From positions 1 through 28,179 of the IMG/VR virus record IMGVR_UViG_2778261154_000006: a DNA stretch of 28,179 bases. The stretch is one strand, 5' to 3'. The position numbers were made by a program, and so were the translations under genes. This stretch comes from a virus (Duplodnaviria; Heunggongvirae; Uroviricota; Caudoviricetes). Below the pieces are notes generated by a model. The model saw only the letters and a list, made by a program, of their open reading frames with translations. It was not told the origin of the DNA and did not search any database. Positions 18,862 through 26,356 of this stretch are shown one piece after another; the first letter of the stretch is position 1; every line of letters begins with the position of its first letter.

Positions 18862-19986
18862 ATGACGTTTCCACAGGTCACAATTAATCAGCTCAACACC
18901 CACAGCGGAAGCAAGCGTGGGATCGCCTGCACCCTGCTGATGGTGGGCGAGCATACAAAAGCCATTCTCCCGACACCGGTTACAGCACAAACCGATCTTG
19001 ACTCGCTGTTAGGAACAAAGGATTCATTGTTACGCAGTAACGTGCAGGCGTTTCTGGATAATGCCGGACAAAATGCCATGATCTGGCTGGCAACCGTGCA
19101 GACACCCCAGCCTTCTGGTCAGACCCGAACGTGGGCTGATGTGGTTATGGATGCACAGGCCACCCTCTCGGTGGAAGGCGTTGTCGTTGTTCGCGCTAAC
19201 GCCTCAGGTAACGATATCGACAAAGCGCAGCAACTGCGCAGCGAACTCAATAACACCTTCCAGCGCTGGACATGGTTTATCCTGGCTGTTCGCGGCTGCG
19301 GAACAGGCGAGAAGTGGTCAGAATACGTCACCGTCATGACCGGACTACAGAAAGGCATTGCCGCTTACGCGGTGCAGCTTACCCCGATGCTGTTCGGCAA
19401 TGAACCGGGGATACTGGCCGGTCGCCTTTGCAATCCATCAGTGACGATTGCTGATTCCCCCGCCCGTGTTGCAACCGGCGCACTGGTCAATATGGGCCGC
19501 AACGATAAACCGCAGGACAGCGACAAGCGCGAACTGGACATTGCCACCATCAGGGCCCTGAACAGGGCGCGTTTCAGCGTACCAACGTGGTATCCCGACT
19601 ACGAAGGTTACTACTGGGCCGACGGCGTCACGCTCGATGTGGACGGTGGCGATTATCAGGCTATCGAATATCTGCGCGTTGCCGATGAAATGGCCCGTCA
19701 GGTGCGTTTGCTGGCTATCCCAAAAATCGCCAATCGCTCACTGAACTCCACCCCGGCAAGTGTGGCCGCGCACCAACAGCTTTTCGCGAAGCCCATGCGC
19801 GACGGCGCAAAGAGCCTGAAAATCAACGGCACGGTATTCCCTGGCCTTTGCATGTCACCGCACGACGGCGACGTAAAAATCTCATGGCCGGAAAAAGACA
19901 AAGTGCAGATTGCGATCGTGGTTCGCCCGTATAACTGCCCGAAAGAAATCACCATCAGCATCATGCTGGACGAAAGCGGAGAGTAA
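18862..19986 (+). CDS. putative tail sheath protein
   Basis: 374-aa ORF directly upstream of a 153-aa ORF, a sheath/tube-like size pairing. Not recognisably similar to P2 FI from memory, so the assignment is positional. Confidence 0.45.
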   Translation: MTFPQVTINQLNTHSGSKRGIACTLLMVGEHTKAILPTPVTAQTDLDSLLGTKDSLLRSNVQAFLDNAGQNAMIWLATVQTPQPSGQTRTWADVVMDAQATLSVEGVVVVRANASGNDIDKAQQLRSELNNTFQRWTWFILAVRGCGTGEKWSEYVTVMTGLQKGIAAYAVQLTPMLFGNEPGILAGRLCNPSVTIADSPARVATGALVNMGRNDKPQDSDKRELDIATIRALNRARFSVPTWYPDYEGYYWADGVTLDVDGGDYQAIEYLRVADEMARQVRLLAIPKIANRSLNSTPASVAAHQQLFAKPMRDGAKSLKINGTVFPGLCMSPHDGDVKISWPEKDKVQIAIVVRPYNCPKEITISIMLDESGE

Positions 19987-20459: not shown

Positions 20460-20798
20460 ATGCAAAGCACCCCCCACAACTGGAGCGACTGGCTGGCGAT
20501 AATCAAAGACTGGTTACGTGGTGATATCCCTCTTGACAGTCTGCTGATGACTGCCGTCATTGCAGCACTCAGAGTGTTTTACACAGGCCGCAGCTGGCGT
20601 CGTCTTTTGCTTGAGGTGCCGTTGTGTTGCCTGCTGGCCGTGGCGGCATTCACCCTCATTAAGCCGGTCCCCGTCGCATGGCTGACCGAAGACTGGCGCG
20701 TCGGTATCGGTGCCGCAATTGGCCTTATTGGTGTTGAACATATCCGGGCACTGGGTGTGTTCATCACAAAGAAATTTGCAGGGAAAAGTGACGAATGA
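20460..20798 (+). CDS. holin (putative, multi-pass membrane protein)
   Basis: 112-aa ORF with hydrophobic segments (LLMTAVIAALRVF, LCCLLAVAAFTLI, IGAAIGLIGV) and a charged C-terminus. Overlaps the lysozyme gene start. Confidence 0.6.
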   Translation: MQSTPHNWSDWLAIIKDWLRGDIPLDSLLMTAVIAALRVFYTGRSWRRLLLEVPLCCLLAVAAFTLIKPVPVAWLTEDWRVGIGAAIGLIGVEHIRALGVFITKKFAGKSDE

Positions 20799-21238
20799 AA
20801 ATTTCAGACAACGGGCTGGCCGCACTTAAACGCGAAGAAAACTGCAAACTGACCGCTTACCCCGATCCGCGCGGCGTATGGACCATTGGTACAGGTCACA
20901 CAGGAAAGGTTGATGGTGTCGCAGTTCACAAAGGCATGACCATCACCCAGGACACCGCCGACAGACTGCTACGCGACGATCTGTCATGGGTGGAGCACTG
21001 CATCGCTGAACGGGTAACAGTTCCGCTGAACCAGAGTCAGTATGACGCGTTGTGTAGCCTGATTTTCAATATCGGCGCTGACGCTTTTATCGGTTCCACC
21101 GTTCGCCGTCAGTTAAACGCCGGCAACTACACCGCCGCCGCTGATGCTTTCCTGAAATGGAGCCGCGCAGGCAGTAACCCGACAATTCTGGCCCCGCGTC
21201 GCGGACGTGAGCGGGCAATGTTTCTGGGACAGAGGTAA
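20795..21238 (+). CDS. phage lysozyme / endolysin (GH24, lambda R / P21 R-like)
   Basis: GVWTIGTGHTGK matches the GH24 endolysin core (compare P21 R GVWTVCHGHTGK, recalled from memory). N-terminal E-x8-T context. Flanked by holin and spanin genes. Confidence 0.85.
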   Translation: MKISDNGLAALKREENCKLTAYPDPRGVWTIGTGHTGKVDGVAVHKGMTITQDTADRLLRDDLSWVEHCIAERVTVPLNQSQYDALCSLIFNIGADAFIGSTVRRQLNAGNYTAAADAFLKWSRAGSNPTILAPRRGRERAMFLGQR

Positions 21239-21244
21239 GGCCAC

Positions 21245-21709
21245 ATGAAACGCGCAACACTCGCCTTTATCGTCTTCATGGTCGTCGCCGTGGCCGTGCT
21301 CGGCTTCACAGCTGACTACTGGCACAACCGCTTCACCAGGGCAGAAAAAGCCCGCCAGAAAGCCGTAAATCTTGCCGACACCCGACAGCAGACCATTGAC
21401 GACATGACACTGCGTCAGCGCCAGAACGCCGCGCTTGATGCGAAATACACAAAGGAGCTCGCCAATGCAAAAGCTGAATCCGAAAAGTTACGCGCCGATC
21501 TTGCTTCTGGCCGTCGCCGGTTGCAGCTCCACGCCGTCTGTATGCCCGCCGCCACGCGTGATACCACCGCCACCGGCTCAACTGATGCAACCGCCGCCCG
21601 ACTTACTCCGGACGCTGAACGGGATTATCAGCATCTCAGAGCCGAAGCGAAAGCCGTCGTTGCACAAGTGAACGGCCTGCAACAGTACATTACTGAACAA
21701 TGTCATTAA
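21245..21709 (+). CDS. Rz: i-spanin (Rz-like)
   Basis: N-terminal transmembrane segment LAFIVFMVVAVAVLGF, then a charged coiled-coil-like periplasmic domain. Contains an embedded out-of-frame lipoprotein ORF. Confidence 0.8.
   Translation: MKRATLAFIVFMVVAVAVLGFTADYWHNRFTRAEKARQKAVNLADTRQQTIDDMTLRQRQNAALDAKYTKELANAKAESEKLRADLASGRRRLQLHAVCMPAATRDTTATGSTDATAARLTPDAERDYQHLRAEAKAVVAQVNGLQQYITEQCH
21465..21671 (+). CDS. Rz1: o-spanin (Rz1-like outer-membrane lipoprotein), embedded in the +1 frame of Rz
   Basis: AAGGAG SD 8 nt upstream of the ATG at 21465. Signal peptide plus lipobox LAVAGC. Proline-rich mature peptide (PPPRVIPPPPAQLMQPPP). Confidence 0.75.
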   Translation: MQKLNPKSYAPILLLAVAGCSSTPSVCPPPRVIPPPPAQLMQPPPDLLRTLNGIISISEPKRKPSLHK

Positions 21710-21712
21710 AAA

Positions 21713-22012
21713 ATGGCACCACTCACCGGGGAAAATAGCATGAAAGACGAAAATACCACCATCATCACCCTGACCGTCGCAGGCGAGGACATTCGCTTCG
21801 CCCCGACCGAAGCTGTCTACAACAAGTTCGTGAATGAAATAACGATGGATAACAAGGTGGCGCCAGCCAAAAACTACCTGATGCGCTGTGTACACCCGGA
21901 AGACAAAGAGAAACTGGAGAAGCTCATTCACCGCCCGGGAGCAGCCCTTCAGATGGCAGCAAAACTCAATGAAGATTTTGCCGTCAATCTGGATATCACC
22001 GTAAAAAAATAA
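21713..22012 (+). CDS. tail assembly chaperone (zero-frame product; G/E-equivalent)
   Basis: 99-aa ORF immediately upstream of the tape-measure gene. Ends in ...GTA AAA AAA TAA, i.e. a slippery A7 run directly before the stop. Confidence 0.6.
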   Translation: MAPLTGENSMKDENTTIITLTVAGEDIRFAPTEAVYNKFVNEITMDNKVAPAKNYLMRCVHPEDKEKLEKLIHRPGAALQMAAKLNEDFAVNLDITVKK

Positions 22013-22200
22013 AGGCGGCACTGTCCGGCATTGAGCGCAACGGCTACGCGCAATATCTGGTATTACGCCGCCACTGGCTACCGGATGGCGAGGACACACC
22101 GGAAGACATTGCCGCTGCGGTCTGGCTGGACAACCGTTATTTCGAAAACATGAGTATTGCCGTCAATAACGGCATTGCGAGAGCATTTAAAGGTGGGTAA
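21713..22200 (+). CDS. tail assembly chaperone, predicted -1 programmed-frameshift fusion product (GT/E+E'-equivalent), slip at the A7 run 22003-22009
   Basis: After a -1 shift on A AAA AAA, the frame is open for about 62 more codons (KKIKAALSGIERNGYAQYLVLRRHWLPDGEDTPEDIAAAVWLDNRYFENMSIAVNNGIARAFKGG). It stops at TAA 22198-22200, overlapping the tape-measure ATG at 22200. No ATG-initiated ORF covers this 188-bp stretch. Confidence 0.5.
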
Positions 22201-24281
22201 TGGCTGCTGAACTTGATTTTACGCTAAGTCTGGTTGATAAGCTGACGAGACCCTTAAAACAGGCGCAATCGGCTGTGACCGGATTTGCTGACAAGGCAAC
22301 AGCCGACTTTAAACGTCTCGGTTTTGGTGTGGCCGGGTTATGGGGGGCTGCTCAGGGAATAAAAGGACTGGTCAACCCCGCCCGCGACATGGAAGCCGCG
22401 CTGGCCGAAGTCAGCTCGCTGGATGTGGCAAATAAAACACTCGATCAGCTGCGTAAAACTTCACAGACGTTTGCCATTAACTACGGCGAAAGCGCCAGCA
22501 ATTTCGTCCGCAGCGCCTACGATATCCAGTCCGCCATCGCAGGACTTCAGGGTGACGAACTGCCAAAATTTACTGAAGCATCCGCCATTCTCGCCAAAGC
22601 CACCAAATCAGACACGGCCACCATTACTAACTATATGGGCACCATGTACGGTGTTTTTAAAAATACCGCAGAGAAGATGGGGCGCACGCAGTGGGTTGAA
22701 CAAATTGCCGGGCAGACCGCAACCGCCGTTCAGGTGTTCAAAACTACCGGTAATGAAATGTCTGCTGCCTTTACTGCGCTGGGTGCCAACGCGCAGGCAA
22801 TGAAGGTATCTGCCGCTGAACAGTTCGCCGTACTGGGACAGCTCCAGTCCACCATGTCAGGCAGCGAGGCGGGAACCAAATATAAATCATTCCTGGCGGG
22901 GATTGGGAATGCGCAAAAAGTGCTGGGGCTGAACTTTACCAACCGGGACGGCAGTGCCAGAAGCATTACCGGTATCATCGACCTGATTAAAGGAAAGTTT
23001 GGCGATCTGTCAAAAGTGGCAGATGCAGACCTGCTGAAAAAAGCCTTTGGCAGCGATGAAGCGGTGTCCATGATTAAACTACTGACCGGAGATGTTGACG
23101 GGCTGAAACGGAACATCAATACATTAGGTAACATCAAAGGCATGGATAAAGCCATCGAAATGGCGAAAAAGATGGTTGACCCGTGGGATCAGGTTAATTC
23201 TTTACTGGAGCAGGTTCGCGTCAGCATTGGTCTGCGGCTCGATCCCGTCTTTGCCCCGTTCCTGCAAAAAATCATCACCGGCGGGAAAGCCTTCATGAAA
23301 TGGCTGGATACGTTCCCCAATATTGCCCGCTGGCTGGGATATATCACTGCAATGACCCTCGCCTTTGCCGCAGCAGGGGCGCTTGCCAGTATCACGATGG
23401 GGGCCTTCGGCTTTATCATGACCGGGCTCAGCGGAATTGCTGGCGTGCTGAAAGGCGCATGGAAAGGACTAATCTTCACCCTGGATTTATTACGCCCCTC
23501 CCTGCTTTCAACCCGTCTTGGCCTGATGGGGCTATGGATTCAGGAAAAAGCCGTCTGGGTGTGGTCAAAGCTGGTCGCTCTTTGGGCAGGGATCTGTAAA
23601 GCAGCGATCGTAGCCTGGAACGTAGTGTTACGTGCGGGCGCGGTTGCAATGCGCCTGTGGGGCGTGGCGACGGCATTCGCAGGCGGTGCGCTTCAACTCC
23701 TGATAAGTCCCATAACCCTGATTATTCTCGCCATTGCCGCACTTGCCGTAGGGATCTGTCTGGCTATCAAATACTGGGACAGTATTAAAGCCGCCATCAT
23801 GGACACGGAAGCTTTCAGTGCCCTGCTAAAAGTCATTAACGCTGTGGTGGGCTGGTTTGATGATGCATGGAACAGCATTAAAGCCGGATGGGACAATCTG
23901 ACGAACTGGTTTAAAAATTTCTCGCTGGCCGACACATTCGGCAATATCACAGCTGGAATTGGCAAGCTCTTTGACGGCATATGGGATTCCATTAAGAGCG
24001 CCTTTACCGGGACATGGAACTGGATAGCAGAGAAGCTCAACAAAATCCCCGGTGTCAATATCAGCACCGCACAACAGACCGTCGCACCGACACCCGCCCC
24101 GGAGCTTATCACTGGCAACCGTAGCGCCGCCATCCAGGGCGGGCCGGTAAGTCACCAGATAAGCAACAACCGGGGCGACAAAGTCACCAATAACAACGTT
24201 AAGCAGGATATCACACTGCACGTTGACACCCTGGCGACACCGGGACAACTGGCGGAATACAGCGAACTGGCAGCGGGGTGA
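22200..24281 (+). CDS. tail tape measure protein
   Basis: 693-aa ORF directly after the chaperone/frameshift pair. Ala/Gly-rich with a central hydrophobic block (ITAMTLAFAAAGALASITMGAFGFIMTGLSGIAG...) and repeated W/G-containing segments. Confidence 0.85.
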   Translation: MAAELDFTLSLVDKLTRPLKQAQSAVTGFADKATADFKRLGFGVAGLWGAAQGIKGLVNPARDMEAALAEVSSLDVANKTLDQLRKTSQTFAINYGESASNFVRSAYDIQSAIAGLQGDELPKFTEASAILAKATKSDTATITNYMGTMYGVFKNTAEKMGRTQWVEQIAGQTATAVQVFKTTGNEMSAAFTALGANAQAMKVSAAEQFAVLGQLQSTMSGSEAGTKYKSFLAGIGNAQKVLGLNFTNRDGSARSITGIIDLIKGKFGDLSKVADADLLKKAFGSDEAVSMIKLLTGDVDGLKRNINTLGNIKGMDKAIEMAKKMVDPWDQVNSLLEQVRVSIGLRLDPVFAPFLQKIITGGKAFMKWLDTFPNIARWLGYITAMTLAFAAAGALASITMGAFGFIMTGLSGIAGVLKGAWKGLIFTLDLLRPSLLSTRLGLMGLWIQEKAVWVWSKLVALWAGICKAAIVAWNVVLRAGAVAMRLWGVATAFAGGALQLLISPITLIILAIAALAVGICLAIKYWDSIKAAIMDTEAFSALLKVINAVVGWFDDAWNSIKAGWDNLTNWFKNFSLADTFGNITAGIGKLFDGIWDSIKSAFTGTWNWIAEKLNKIPGVNISTAQQTVAPTPAPELITGNRSAAIQGGPVSHQISNNRGDKVTNNNVKQDITLHVDTLATPGQLAEYSELAAG

Positions 24282-24623: not shown

Positions 24624-25791
24624 TATCGACTTCAAAAACATACTGCGCGAAAGCGGAATGCCGGTTGATGAACAGACCGTACGTGACACCCTGCAACAGG
24701 TGGCAGATGATGAAAAACTCATCACCAATACGTCGCGCATGTCGCCATTCTGGCGGCTGATTCAGTTGCTGGTTATCACGCCGTATGTGTGGATTGTTGA
24801 CACACTGGCTGACAATGTACTGCATAATCTGTTTCTGATGACTGCCAGAGGGCCGTTCGTTGACCTGTTCGCTGCCGCCCTCAAGCTTACCCGCAAGGAA
24901 GCCACGCGTGCGATCGGTAAAATCATTTTTACCAAAAACAACCAGAATGACAGTGTGACCGTACCGGCTGGCACACTGATTCAGACGGAGCGTATTAACG
25001 GTGTGATTTATTCCATGGCGACCCGCGAGCAGGTAATTATCCCCGCAGGCACGCAAAGCACCCTTATTGATGTGATCGCCACCGACAGCGGTACGGCATT
25101 CAATCTGGCACCAGGCTATTACCAGATACTCCCCAAAGCGATTAACGGAATTGCGTCTGTACGTAACGGTGATAACTGGCTGACCATACCGGGCGCAAAC
25201 CGCGAAAGTGACGACGAACTGAAAGATCGTTGCCGTAACCAGTTTAACCTTGCCGGCAGTTATCACACTGACGCAGTTTACCGCAGCCTGATAGCTGCAC
25301 AGGCCGGACTGACCATCGATCGCATCTTCTTTTTACATGACGCCCCGCGAGGACCTGGTACAACTAATGCCTACCTGCTGCTGGATACCGGGGTTATTTC
25401 GCAACCCTGGGTTGACAGCGTGAATGATTACATCATGGCACAGGGACATCACGGCCACGGCGATGATATGCGTTGTTTTGCCATGCCGGAAACCCGCCAC
25501 GATCTGGCGGTTACGGTGTATGTTGAAAACCTTTCCAATATCAGCAAAAACGATATCGACGCCCTGAAATCAGGCACTGAAAACCTGATTCGTTGTGCAT
25601 TCCGTGAAAACAGTAACTACGACGTAACCCGCACATGGCCATACAGTCGCTTTTCATTCTCGCAACTGGGACGCGAACTGCATGACACCTTTCCTCTGGT
25701 GGGATCCGTGACGTTTTCCCTTGAGGATATCATCAGCGATCTGAACGTACCCCGCCTGAACACACTGACAGTTGAGGTGAAGAATGCCTGA
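24613..25791 (+). CDS. baseplate protein, J/gp47-like (putative)
   Basis: 392-aa ORF upstream of a gpI-like gene and the tail fibre. Size and position fit the baseplate J family. Confidence 0.5.
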   Translation: MQNNIDFKNILRESGMPVDEQTVRDTLQQVADDEKLITNTSRMSPFWRLIQLLVITPYVWIVDTLADNVLHNLFLMTARGPFVDLFAAALKLTRKEATRAIGKIIFTKNNQNDSVTVPAGTLIQTERINGVIYSMATREQVIIPAGTQSTLIDVIATDSGTAFNLAPGYYQILPKAINGIASVRNGDNWLTIPGANRESDDELKDRCRNQFNLAGSYHTDAVYRSLIAAQAGLTIDRIFFLHDAPRGPGTTNAYLLLDTGVISQPWVDSVNDYIMAQGHHGHGDDMRCFAMPETRHDLAVTVYVENLSNISKNDIDALKSGTENLIRCAFRENSNYDVTRTWPYSRFSFSQLGRELHDTFPLVGSVTFSLEDIISDLNVPRLNTLTVEVKNA

Positions 25792-26356
25792 TAAATCACC
25801 GGACATTAAGTTGCCGTCATGGCTGAATCGCGGCGATGTGCTCCGCCTGAAAAACACCTTTATCCGTTTCTGGGGAAAGGTGCACGACTGGGTAACATGG
25901 CCACTGAGCCAGACCGACCCACTGACATGTGCGGAATCCATTCTGAACCTGACAGCCTGGCAATATGATATAGCCCGTTTTGACGGCGAACCGCTCACGC
26001 TGTACAGAAAGCGTGTCAAATATGCCTTTATCAACGCACAGGACGCGGGCAGCGTGGCGGGATTCAGGGCAATTTTTGAACGACTGGGGATCGGTTATGT
26101 GGAGATTCAGGAGCGCCAGCCAGGCACAGACTGGGATGTTGTTCTTTTGCGCCTGACAGACAACCAGATCTCAGAAAATACAACATTACTCAATCAGATA
26201 ATTCGCCAGTACGGTCGCACCTGCCGCCGTTACCATCTTCAGATAATCACATCCACGGATTGTGTTATCGGACACGGATACTGGCATGGCAGCTATCACT
26301 ATTTTTATGCACCGGAGATGAAAAATGACCCAGAGCGCTATCACTTCAGCATTTGA
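25784..26356 (+). CDS. tail (baseplate) protein, P2 gpI-like
   Basis: Segment ILNLTAWQYDIARFDGEPLTLYRKRVKYAFINAQDAGSVAGFRAIFERLG parallels P2 gpI (LLPWLAWAFSVDRWDEKWPEATKRAVIRDAYFIHCHKGTIGAIRRVVEPLG, recalled from memory). Immediately upstream of the fibre gene. Confidence 0.55.
   Translation: MPDKSPDIKLPSWLNRGDVLRLKNTFIRFWGKVHDWVTWPLSQTDPLTCAESILNLTAWQYDIARFDGEPLTLYRKRVKYAFINAQDAGSVAGFRAIFERLGIGYVEIQERQPGTDWDVVLLRLTDNQISENTTLLNQIIRQYGRTCRRYHLQIITSTDCVIGHGYWHGSYHYFYAPEMKNDPERYHFSI

What the first reader, a model, noticed from the sequence alone, without database searches (positions are those of the whole stretch)
22003..22200. Unannotated coding gap before the tape-measure gene is best explained by a -1 programmed frameshift on an A7 slippery run
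The 99-aa chaperone ORF ends ...GTA AAA AAA TAA. The following 188 bp have no ATG-initiated ORF yet are open in the -1 frame from the slippery site to a TAA that overlaps the tape-measure start codon. This is the conserved tail-chaperone frameshift arrangement (lambda G/GT, P2 E/E+E'), and the extension would be missed by ORF callers.
Basis: partly seen in the sequence, partly recalled or inferred. Interest (0 to 1): 0.5.

Follow-up and report, generated by a model that had tools for sequence, protein, structure and literature searches.

The report
Tail-chaperone −1 frameshift, HP1-type prophage
This E. coli prophage almost certainly makes a longer version of its tail assembly chaperone by a ribosome slipping back one base on a run of A's just before the stop codon; this is a well-known phage trick, already catalogued for its relative HP1, that genome annotation pipelines still miss.

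Summary
The chaperone ORF ends GTA AAA AAA TAA, with A7 at 22003..22009. The −1 frame is open from 21973 to a TAA at 22198..22200 that overlaps the tape-measure ATG, and no usable start codon precedes the conserved part.

The 63-aa −1-frame extension matches Pfam DUF6890 (E = 6e-24). The upstream ORF matches Phage_TAC_10, and its model resembles the solved HK97 tail assembly chaperone.

Across 85 distinct junctions from more than 30 gammaproteobacterial genera:
- the extension is always in the −1 frame;
- 83 carry A AAA AAN in the zero frame at the same alignment position;
- the preceding codon is always NTA;
- 81 of 83 have a stop directly after the heptamer.

Substitution periodicity switches to the −1 frame exactly at the heptamer. 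No conserved RNA structure or SD-like stimulator was found.

This is not new in kind. Xu, Hendrix and Duda (2004) listed HP1's AAAAAA site, and the phage ACA1 record annotates the joined CDS. RefSeq instead annotates this exact sequence with a 30-aa ATT-initiated "DUF6890 family protein". It is a well-supported but ordinary new member of a known kind. No expression data exist.

The parts
21740..22012 (+). Tail assembly chaperone, short form. 90 aa and 10.2 kDa from ATG 21740. The longest ORF starts at ATG 21713 and gives 99 aa. This is the product of standard decoding.
22003..22009 (+). Slippery heptamer A AAA AAA (X XXY YYZ in the zero frame: GT[A AAA AAA] TAA).
   Evidence: The homologous position is A AAA AAC in 72, A AAA AAA in 10 and A AAA AAG in 1 of 85 distinct junctions. 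It is the only run of invariant columns in a 35-sequence alignment. The preceding codon is always NTA, against 12% A-ending V/I/L codons elsewhere.
22010..22012 (+). Zero-frame stop TAA directly 3' of the heptamer. It is a possible 'shifty stop' stimulator (inferred).
   Evidence: A stop codon directly follows the heptamer in 81 of 83 junctions. No other conserved stimulator was found.
22009..22200 (+). −1-frame extension of 63 codons plus TAA (22198..22200), forming the DUF6890 domain. It is the equivalent of the lambda T or P2 E' part.
   Evidence: Pfam DUF6890, E = 6e-24, and phrog_7050, E = 4.9e-24. Third-position variability is in the −1 frame. Predicted as a helical hairpin, pLDDT 89.7. 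No canonical start lies upstream of the domain. PGAP resorts to ATT at 22108.
21740..22200 (+). Predicted frameshift fusion product, join(21740..22009, 22009..22200). 153 aa, 17.2 kDa. Junction ...NLDITVKK|IKAALSGIER...
   Evidence: tblastn of the fusion finds two-piece matches covering at least 80% in 76 phage records. The same joined CDS is annotated in phage ACA1, OR438928 gp36a.
22200..24281 (+). Tape measure protein gene. Its ATG overlaps the extension's stop (TAATG).
   Evidence: Pfam PhageMin_Tail, E = 1.7e-28, and phrog_28, E = 3.7e-90. No promoter-like or terminator-like site lies in 21600..22400.

Best explanation
This is a programmed −1 ribosomal frameshift in the tail assembly chaperone gene of an HP1-type (Peduoviridae) prophage.

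How it most likely works:
- Most ribosomes translate the chaperone gene from 21740 and terminate at TAA 22010. This gives the 90-aa chaperone.
- A minority slip when the two Lys-tRNAs sit on AAA AAA (22004..22009). They re-pair one base back, on 22003..22008.
- Those ribosomes then read ATA AAG GCG ... in the −1 frame to TAA 22198. This gives a 153-aa fusion of chaperone plus DUF6890 domain.

By analogy with lambda G/GT, the shared N-terminal part would coat the tape measure protein encoded immediately downstream. The rare C-terminal domain would recruit tail-tube subunits. The fixed low shift rate would set the ratio of the two forms.

Shown here: the signal, its conservation, coding constraint in the −1 frame, the lack of an independent start, and the chaperone fold.

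Inferred: that the shift is ribosomal, its efficiency, stimulation by the adjacent stop codon, and the binding partners.
For: (1) Anatomy. The heptamer A AAA AAA is in the zero frame and directly followed by the stop. The −1 frame is open to a stop overlapping the tape-measure start.

(2) The extension is a conserved protein domain. It matches DUF6890 at E = 6e-24 and phrog_7050, and the fold prediction is confident.

(3) Comparative test.
- All 85 distinct junctions have the extension in −1.
- 83 have A AAA AAN.
- The X position is kept as A through V/I/L changes: GTA 51, ATA 26, CTA 6. This is expected for tandem two-tRNA slippage, but not for reinitiation or for single-tRNA slippage on the last codon.
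- In ACA1 and phi3 the zero frame runs 8–9 codons past the heptamer, yet the heptamer stays at the same position in the protein alignment.

(4) Wobble periodicity moves from the zero frame to the −1 frame at the heptamer. Mean column entropy by col mod 3 (order 0/1/2) is 0.65/1.43/0.86 upstream and 1.62/0.96/0.83 downstream.

(5) No conserved start codon. Orphan ORF calls for the domain across 1.84 billion proteins are 28–81 aa with scattered N-termini, and none is an in-frame fusion.

(6) Most relatives have only A6 followed by C. That suits ribosomal slippage, not RNA-polymerase slippage.

(7) Precedent. A_AAA_AAA, A_AAA_AAC and A_AAA_AAG each give more than 0.1% −1 shifting in E. coli without stimulators, and IS1 uses A_AAA_AAC with no established stimulator (PMC4066793). 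The lambda G:GT ratio is 30:1 (PMC5009743).

(8) The same anatomy is annotated as a −1 frameshift in P2 E/E+E' and projected in ACA1 gp36a. HP1's AAAAAA site is listed by Xu et al. 2004, as cited in PMC5221750.
Against: - There is no expression, proteomic or reporter evidence for this prophage. I also found none for any HP1-type relative.
- No conserved downstream RNA structure. RNAalifold gives 0 pairs. The window fold has z = −1.1. There is no Rfam match.
- No SD-like upstream element. Efficiency may therefore be low.
- One relative, Citrobacter sp. FP75 (L034), has a broken heptamer, GTA AAG AAA TAA.
- The A7 run in this window could also support some transcriptional slippage, which would give the identical protein.
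Confidence: 0.85

Rival explanations
1. Transcriptional slippage. RNA polymerase adds one extra A on the A7 tract, giving an A8 mRNA. Standard translation of that mRNA reads GTA AAA AAA ATA AAG ..., which produces the same fusion protein without any ribosomal shift.
For: The window has a 7-A homopolymer. AAAAAAA is under-represented in all three frames of E. coli genes, possibly because of transcriptional slippage (PMC4066793). The product is indistinguishable at the protein level.
Against: 72 of 83 relatives have only six A's followed by C, and one has A6G. The conserved unit is the frame-specific heptamer including the NTA codon, which fits tRNA re-pairing. From general knowledge, efficient programmed transcriptional slippage in bacteria uses longer runs of about 9 or more. 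It could still contribute a minor share in the A7 variants.
Confidence: 0.06
2. DUF6890 is made as a separate small protein. This would be by independent initiation, as RefSeq annotates with ATT at 22108, or by termination–reinitiation at the chaperone stop. It would not be a fusion.
For: PGAP and several phage records call small stand-alone ORFs here. The stop and the next frame overlap, as in coupled genes.
Against: - The window has no ATG, GTG or TTG upstream of the conserved domain. The only in-frame ATG (22150) removes three quarters of it and lacks an SD.
- Only 8 of 85 junctions have any start-like codon before the domain.
- Called ORFs start at scattered positions.
- Amino-acid conservation and −1-frame wobble begin right at the heptamer.
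- The −1 codon overlapping the stop varies (ATA, CTA, CTG, GCG) and is not a consistent start.
- Reinitiation would not constrain the A at the third position of the NTA codon.
Confidence: 0.05
3. The arrangement has no function. It would be a chance open frame, a decaying gene split by a frameshift mutation, or a sequencing error in a homopolymer.
For: Homopolymer runs are error-prone, and the open −1 run alone has only p of about 0.02–0.05.
Against: - The identical sequence is found in six complete E. coli genomes and six IMG/VR contigs.
- The same split, the same frame and the same heptamer recur in 85 distinct junctions over more than 30 genera, including cultured, plaque-forming phages such as HP1, K139, phiO18P and ACA1.
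- Purifying selection acts on the −1 frame.
- The zero-frame stop is retained everywhere.
Confidence: 0.01

Closest known systems
Haemophilus phage HP1 orf26 plus its downstream −1 extension, and the HP1-type Peduoviridae (HP2, K139, Kappa, phiO18P, F108, phi3, ACA1 gp36/gp36a)
   Same: Homologous in both parts. tblastn gives two pieces at 41% identity to HP1. The Pfam pair is the same (TAC_10 + DUF6890), as are the heptamer position, the −1 frame and the gene order with the lysis cassette between tube and chaperone. ACA1's record annotates the joined CDS as a projected programmed frameshift. HP1's AAAAAA site is attributed to Xu et al. 2004 in PMC5221750.
   Different: The window uses the minority A AAA AAA variant (10 of 83). 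HP1 and most relatives use A AAA AAC. This E. coli prophage is not annotated with slippage in RefSeq.
Phage P2 E / E+E' (−1 frameshift at T TTT TTG in the FETUD operon)
   Same: Same virus family, Peduoviridae. A ~90-aa chaperone becomes a ~140–150-aa fusion by a −1 shift near its 3' end. The long form's stop overlaps the tape-measure start. The gene lies directly upstream of the tape measure gene.
   Different: The Pfam families differ: Phage_TAC_7 + Phage_P2_GpE against Phage_TAC_10 + DUF6890. There is no detectable profile similarity, with hhalign probability 0.5%. The heptamer differs. The P2 slip site lies 7 codons before the E stop rather than abutting it.
Phage lambda G / GT
   Same: The arrangement is functionally analogous: a chaperone short form plus a rare −1 fusion, located upstream of the tape measure gene. 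The mechanistic model is that G binds the tape measure, T binds the major tail protein, and the ratio is about 30:1 (PMC5009743).
   Different: Lambda is a siphovirus. Its heptamer is G GGA AAG (general knowledge). No sequence relationship was tested or expected. Here the tail is contractile and the partner would be the tube protein.
IS1 insA / insAB' −1 frameshift on A AAA AAC
   Same: The heptamer is the same as in most relatives. It is a proven −1 shift in E. coli with no established stimulator and low efficiency (PMC4066793).
   Different: It makes a transposase, not a chaperone. It is unrelated biology and serves only as a precedent for the signal.

Membership tests
Tail assembly chaperone with programmed −1 frameshift (lambda G/GT-type arrangement, Xu et al. 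2004) | Two overlapping reading frames lying between the major tail (tube) gene and the tape measure gene, directly upstream of the latter | tested here: met
   The order is sheath 18862, tube 19990, lysis cassette, chaperone 21740, extension, tape measure 22200. The lysis cassette inserted between tube and chaperone is the HP1 order.
Tail assembly chaperone with programmed −1 frameshift (lambda G/GT-type arrangement, Xu et al. 2004) | A slippery X XXY YYZ heptamer in the zero frame within the overlap, allowing −1 re-pairing | tested here: met
   A AAA AAA at 22003..22009. It is conserved as A AAA AAN in 83 of 85 junctions.
Tail assembly chaperone with programmed −1 frameshift (lambda G/GT-type arrangement, Xu et al. 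2004) | The downstream frame encodes conserved protein but lacks its own conserved start codon or ribosome binding site | tested here: met
   Pfam DUF6890. −1-frame wobble. No start upstream of the domain. PGAP uses ATT. Orphan ORF calls have scattered N-termini.
Tail assembly chaperone with programmed −1 frameshift (lambda G/GT-type arrangement, Xu et al. 2004) | The upstream protein has the tail-assembly-chaperone fold | tested here: met
Tail assembly chaperone with programmed −1 frameshift (lambda G/GT-type arrangement, Xu et al. 2004) | Both short and long proteins are made in a fixed ratio, both are needed for tail assembly, and neither is in the virion | not testable with these tools
   This needs western blots or MS of induced lysogens, plus genetics.
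Tail assembly chaperone with programmed −1 frameshift (lambda G/GT-type arrangement, Xu et al. 2004) | The frameshift-encoded domain binds the major tail (tube) protein, and the shared domain binds the tape measure | not testable with these tools
   Inferred from lambda (PMC5009743). The extension's helical hairpin gave no informative fold match.
Pfam Phage_TAC_10 (PF10963) + DUF6890 (PF21830) | HMM score above the curated gathering threshold | tested here: met
   107.3 bits against a 25.7 cut-off, and 84.0 bits against a 23.6 cut-off. Both are found in the fusion.
P2 gpE / gpE+E' sequence family (Phage_TAC_7 + Phage_P2_GpE) | Sequence or profile homology to P2 E and E' | tested here: not met
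   hhalign probability is 0.5%. The Pfam families are different. It works like P2 E/E+E' but is not a member of that sequence family.
Stimulated bacterial −1 frameshift sites (dnaX / IS911 / IS3 type) | A conserved upstream SD-like element and/or a downstream hairpin or pseudoknot | tested here: not met
   RNAalifold gives 0 pairs on 35 sequences. The hand-picked hairpin pairs in 65% of cells against 61% in shuffles, and is absent from the window. Window fold z-scores are −1.1 and +1.2. Only a GGA trinucleotide lies upstream. No Rfam hit.

The most novel reading that the evidence does not exclude
In this lineage the only conserved stimulator is the zero-frame stop codon abutting the heptamer (81 of 83 junctions). 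The short:long chaperone ratio may therefore be set by a kinetic competition between release-factor-mediated termination and −1 slippage, a 'shifty stop', with no RNA structure involved. This would make tail-chaperone stoichiometry sensitive to release-factor activity and stop-codon identity. TAA, TGA and TAG all occur among the relatives. It would also define a distinct sub-class of tail-chaperone frameshift signals.
Probability: 0.3. Interest if true: 0.35.

Novelty: new member of a known kind. Interest (0 to 1): 0.2.

Why it matters
The value is mostly in annotation and curation.

- The exact sequence is carried in RefSeq as two unrelated CDSs: a chaperone, and a 30-aa ATT-initiated "DUF6890 family protein". 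Most HP1-type phage records either leave the gap empty or call an orphan mini-ORF.
- The data here show that Pfam DUF6890 / phrog_7050 is the frameshift-encoded C-terminal domain of Phage_TAC_10 tail assembly chaperones. In other words, it is the lambda-T / P2-E' equivalent of the HP1 lineage. That gives the DUF a function and gives pipelines a simple rule: TAC_10 ending NTA AAA AAN, followed by DUF6890 in the −1 frame, should be annotated as a ribosomal_slippage join.
- It adds a large, clean comparative set (85 junctions) for a stimulator-less, stop-adjacent A AAA AAN signal.
- It does not change the understanding of phage tail assembly or of recoding.

Tried and rejected
- **Downstream stimulatory RNA structure.** The window folds gave z = −1.1 and +1.2. 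RNAalifold on 35 non-redundant junctions gave no pairs. A hairpin seen by eye in Evevirus-like relatives (columns 46–52 with 70–76) pairs in 65% of cells against 61% in shuffles, and does not form in the window. Rfam gave nothing. Rejected as a family-wide element.
- **Upstream SD-like stimulator.** Only GGA, 9 nt upstream, in 24 of 35 sequences, and the Leu-Glu/Asp codons explain it. Rejected.
- **Homology to P2 E/E'.** None.
- **Natural in-frame chaperone–DUF6890 fusions as 'Rosetta stone' support.** None among 1.84 billion representatives. The two long hits are unrelated repeat proteins.
- **A deposited fusion protein in the 5.8-billion-protein database.** None. All hits cover only the chaperone part.
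- **Fold match for the extension.** Uninformative.
- **Alternative slip site T_TTT at 21976..21979 in the overlap.** Not conserved. Relatives have Tyr codons there, and many have only a 13-nt overlap.
- **First genome scan with the 14-sequence alignment.** It failed because the alignment was too diverse and was redone with 5 sequences.
- **Literature.** Christie 2002 could not be read. 'DUF6890' occurs in no paper of the library.

Full report
**1. The observation.**
- The zero-frame ORF ends GTA AAA AAA TAA, with the stop at 22010..22012. The A7 run is 22003..22009.
- In the zero frame this is a canonical X XXY YYZ heptamer, GT[A AAA AAA].
- A −1 shift there gives ...DITVKK-IKAALSGIER... and runs 63 codons to TAA 22198..22200. 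The last base of that TAA is the A of the tape-measure ATG (TAATG).
- The −1 frame is open from 21973, so any shift must occur within a 40-nt window.
- The only start-like codon in that frame is ATG 22150. It lies 16 codons before the stop and has no SD.

Small corrections are needed.
- The gap is 187 nt.
- The chaperone probably starts at ATG 21740 (90 aa). GGGGA lies upstream, all homologues begin there, and PGAP uses that start. The longest-ORF start at 21713 gives 99 aa.

In the window alone the case is only moderately better than chance. P(63 open codons) is about 0.017 to 0.05, and in-frame heptamers occur at 6 of 3016 codon positions.

**2. What the parts are.**
- The window is a P2/HP1-type (Peduoviridae) prophage. 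It carries a replication nickase, portal, terminase, scaffold, capsid, tail terminator, sheath, tube, a holin–lysozyme–Rz cassette, the chaperone, the tape measure, a DUF2590 protein, baseplate J and a tail fibre.
- The upstream ORF matches Pfam Phage_TAC_10 (E = 4.5e-31).
- The 63-aa −1-frame translation matches Pfam DUF6890 (E = 6e-24, full profile length) and phrog_7050. The "gap" is therefore conserved coding sequence.
- The extension is predicted with high confidence (pLDDT 89.7) as a two-helix hairpin. Its fold search was uninformative.

**3. Public annotation.**
- The identical sequence occurs in 6 of 5426 complete E. coli genomes.
- RefSeq annotates a 90-aa chaperone and, separately, a 30-aa "DUF6890 family protein" at window 22108..22200. 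Its start codon is ATT. The pipeline recognised the domain but had no normal start to use.
- No protein spanning the junction exists in the 5.8-billion-protein collection.
- An exhaustive HMMER scan of 1.84 billion representatives with the extension found only orphan ORFs of 28–81 aa with scattered N-termini. It also found two unrelated repeat proteins.

**4. Comparative test.
tblastn of the predicted fusion against 50,697 phage records gave 76 records. Each matched as two pieces covering at least 80% of the query. They include HP1, HP2, K139, Kappa, phiO18P, F108, phi3 and ACA1. A genome scan added 65 prophage loci from one genome per species.

Over 85 distinct junction sequences:
- The extension is in the −1 frame relative to the chaperone C-terminus in all of them. 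The one automatic outlier, L025, has an upstream indel in the chaperone but the standard junction.
- 83 carry A AAA AAN at the homologous position: C in 72, A in 10, G in 1.
- One locus, L034, has GTA AAG AAA TAA.
- A stop codon follows the heptamer directly in 81 of 83.
- In ACA1 and phi3 the zero frame continues 8–9 codons, but the heptamer stays at the same place in the protein alignment.
- The codon before the heptamer is always NTA (GTA 51, ATA 26, CTA 6). Only 12% of V/I/L codons elsewhere in the alignment end in A. This nucleotide-level constraint on X is what tandem two-tRNA slippage predicts.

In a gap-free alignment of 35 junctions sharing less than 85% identity, the only run of invariant columns is TAAAAAA. 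The most variable codon position switches at the heptamer from the zero-frame third position to the −1-frame third position. Mean entropies by col mod 3 (order 0/1/2) are 0.65/1.43/0.86 upstream and 1.62/0.96/0.83 downstream.

**5. Stimulators.** None was found.
- The window's downstream fold is no better than shuffled sequence.
- RNAalifold finds no pairs.
- A hairpin visible in Evevirus-like relatives is marginal across the family and absent from the window.
- There is no Rfam match, no SD-like element, and no promoter-like or terminator-like site in the gap.
- The only conserved flanking feature is the abutting stop codon. Its role as a "shifty stop" is an inference.

This is compatible with published data. 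A_AAA_AAA, A_AAA_AAC and A_AAA_AAG each give more than 0.1% −1 shifting in E. coli without stimulators. IS1 uses A_AAA_AAC with no established stimulator (PMC4066793). Lambda needs only about 1 GT per 30 G (PMC5009743).

**6. Mechanism and rivals.**
- Best explanation (0.85): a programmed −1 ribosomal frameshift gives a 10.2-kDa chaperone and a rare 17.2-kDa chaperone–DUF6890 fusion. The lambda-type division of labour is inferred.
- Transcriptional slippage on A7 would give the identical protein. It is disfavoured because most relatives have only A6C and because the conserved unit is frame-specific (0.06).
- A separately initiated or reinitiated DUF6890 peptide is disfavoured. There is no conserved start, and both conservation and −1-frame wobble begin at the heptamer (0.05).
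- Chance, pseudogene or sequencing error is excluded by the comparative data (0.01).

**7. Comparison with what is known.**
- P2's proven E/E+E' has the same anatomy. E is 91 aa and E+E' is 142 aa, the shift is −1 at T TTT TTG, and the long form's stop overlaps the T gene start.
- Its proteins belong to other Pfam families, Phage_TAC_7 and Phage_P2_GpE, and show no profile similarity. The window therefore works like P2 E/E+E' without belonging to that sequence family.
- It is a true homologue of HP1 orf26 and its extension.
- Prior art exists for this lineage. PMC5221750, citing Xu, Hendrix and Duda 2004, lists HP1 among phages with AAAAAA slip sites. GenBank OR438928 annotates ACA1 gp36a as a [quoted passage not shown].
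- I found no experimental test in any HP1-type phage, and no paper mentioning DUF6890.

**8. Verdict.**
- The finding is a new, unannotated member of a known kind.
- Its practical value is to annotation: DUF6890 is the frameshift-encoded domain of TAC_10 chaperones.
- Interest is low (0.2).

Noticed in passing
window 21465..21671 (+), inside the Rz-like gene 21245..21709: An embedded +1-frame ORF encodes an Rz1-type o-spanin lipoprotein (MQKLNPKSYAPILLLAVAGC..., Pro-rich). It matches Pfam Rz1 at E = 2.8e-10, above the gathering score. It is not annotated in the identical RefSeq record.
   Followed up: yes
window 22108..22200 (+): RefSeq/PGAP annotates a 30-aa 'DUF6890 family protein' here with a non-canonical ATT start. 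This is an artefact of fitting an HMM hit where no start exists.
   Followed up: yes
L034 1431..1450 (Citrobacter sp. FP75, NZ_JAFDOE010000001.1): This is the only junction with a broken heptamer, GTA AAG AAA TAA. The −1 extension is intact. An A_AAG tetramer remains that could allow single-tRNA slippage, or the prophage may be defective.
   Followed up: partly
L025 1200..1450 (Enterobacter sp. EA-1, CP025776.1): The chaperone gene itself is split by an indel about 25 codons upstream of the slip site. This is a pseudogene or an assembly error. The junction GTA AAA AAC TGA and the extension are normal.
   Followed up: partly
L012 940..970 (phage ACA1) and L016 946..976 (Pseudomonas phage phi3): The zero frame continues 8–9 codons past the conserved heptamer instead of stopping immediately. 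The abutting stop is therefore not obligatory in every lineage.
   Followed up: partly
L002 2701..2731, L003, L017 (Evevirus, Quadragintavirus, Seongnamvirus relatives): A 6–7-bp hairpin (GAGTCC ... GGACTC, ~17-nt loop) lies 9 nt downstream of the heptamer in this sub-clade. It is marginal family-wide and absent from the window. It could be a clade-specific stimulator or a by-product of the R-V / G-L codons.
   Followed up: partly
window 25873..25879 (+) in gene 25784..26356, and 19719..19725 (+) in the sheath gene: Other in-frame slippery heptamers are present. G GGA AAG is followed by only 29 open −1 codons. C CCA AAA is followed by a 69-codon open −1 run. No conservation check was done, and they are probably incidental.
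   Followed up: no
window 21976..21979 (+): A T_TTT tetramer lies inside the 40-nt overlap window and is a formal alternative slip site. It is not conserved, because relatives have Tyr codons there.
   Followed up: yes
L048 (JAEWTL010000126.1, labelled 'MAG: Bacillota bacterium'): An HP1-type junction typical of Enterobacterales prophages (attgaagtaaaaaacTGA) sits on a contig binned as Bacillota. This is probably a binning error.
   Followed up: no
window 20460..21709 (+): The holin–lysozyme–Rz/Rz1 lysis cassette sits between the tail tube gene and the tail chaperone gene. This is the HP1-type order, unlike P2, where the chaperone gene E directly follows the tube gene FII.
   Followed up: partly
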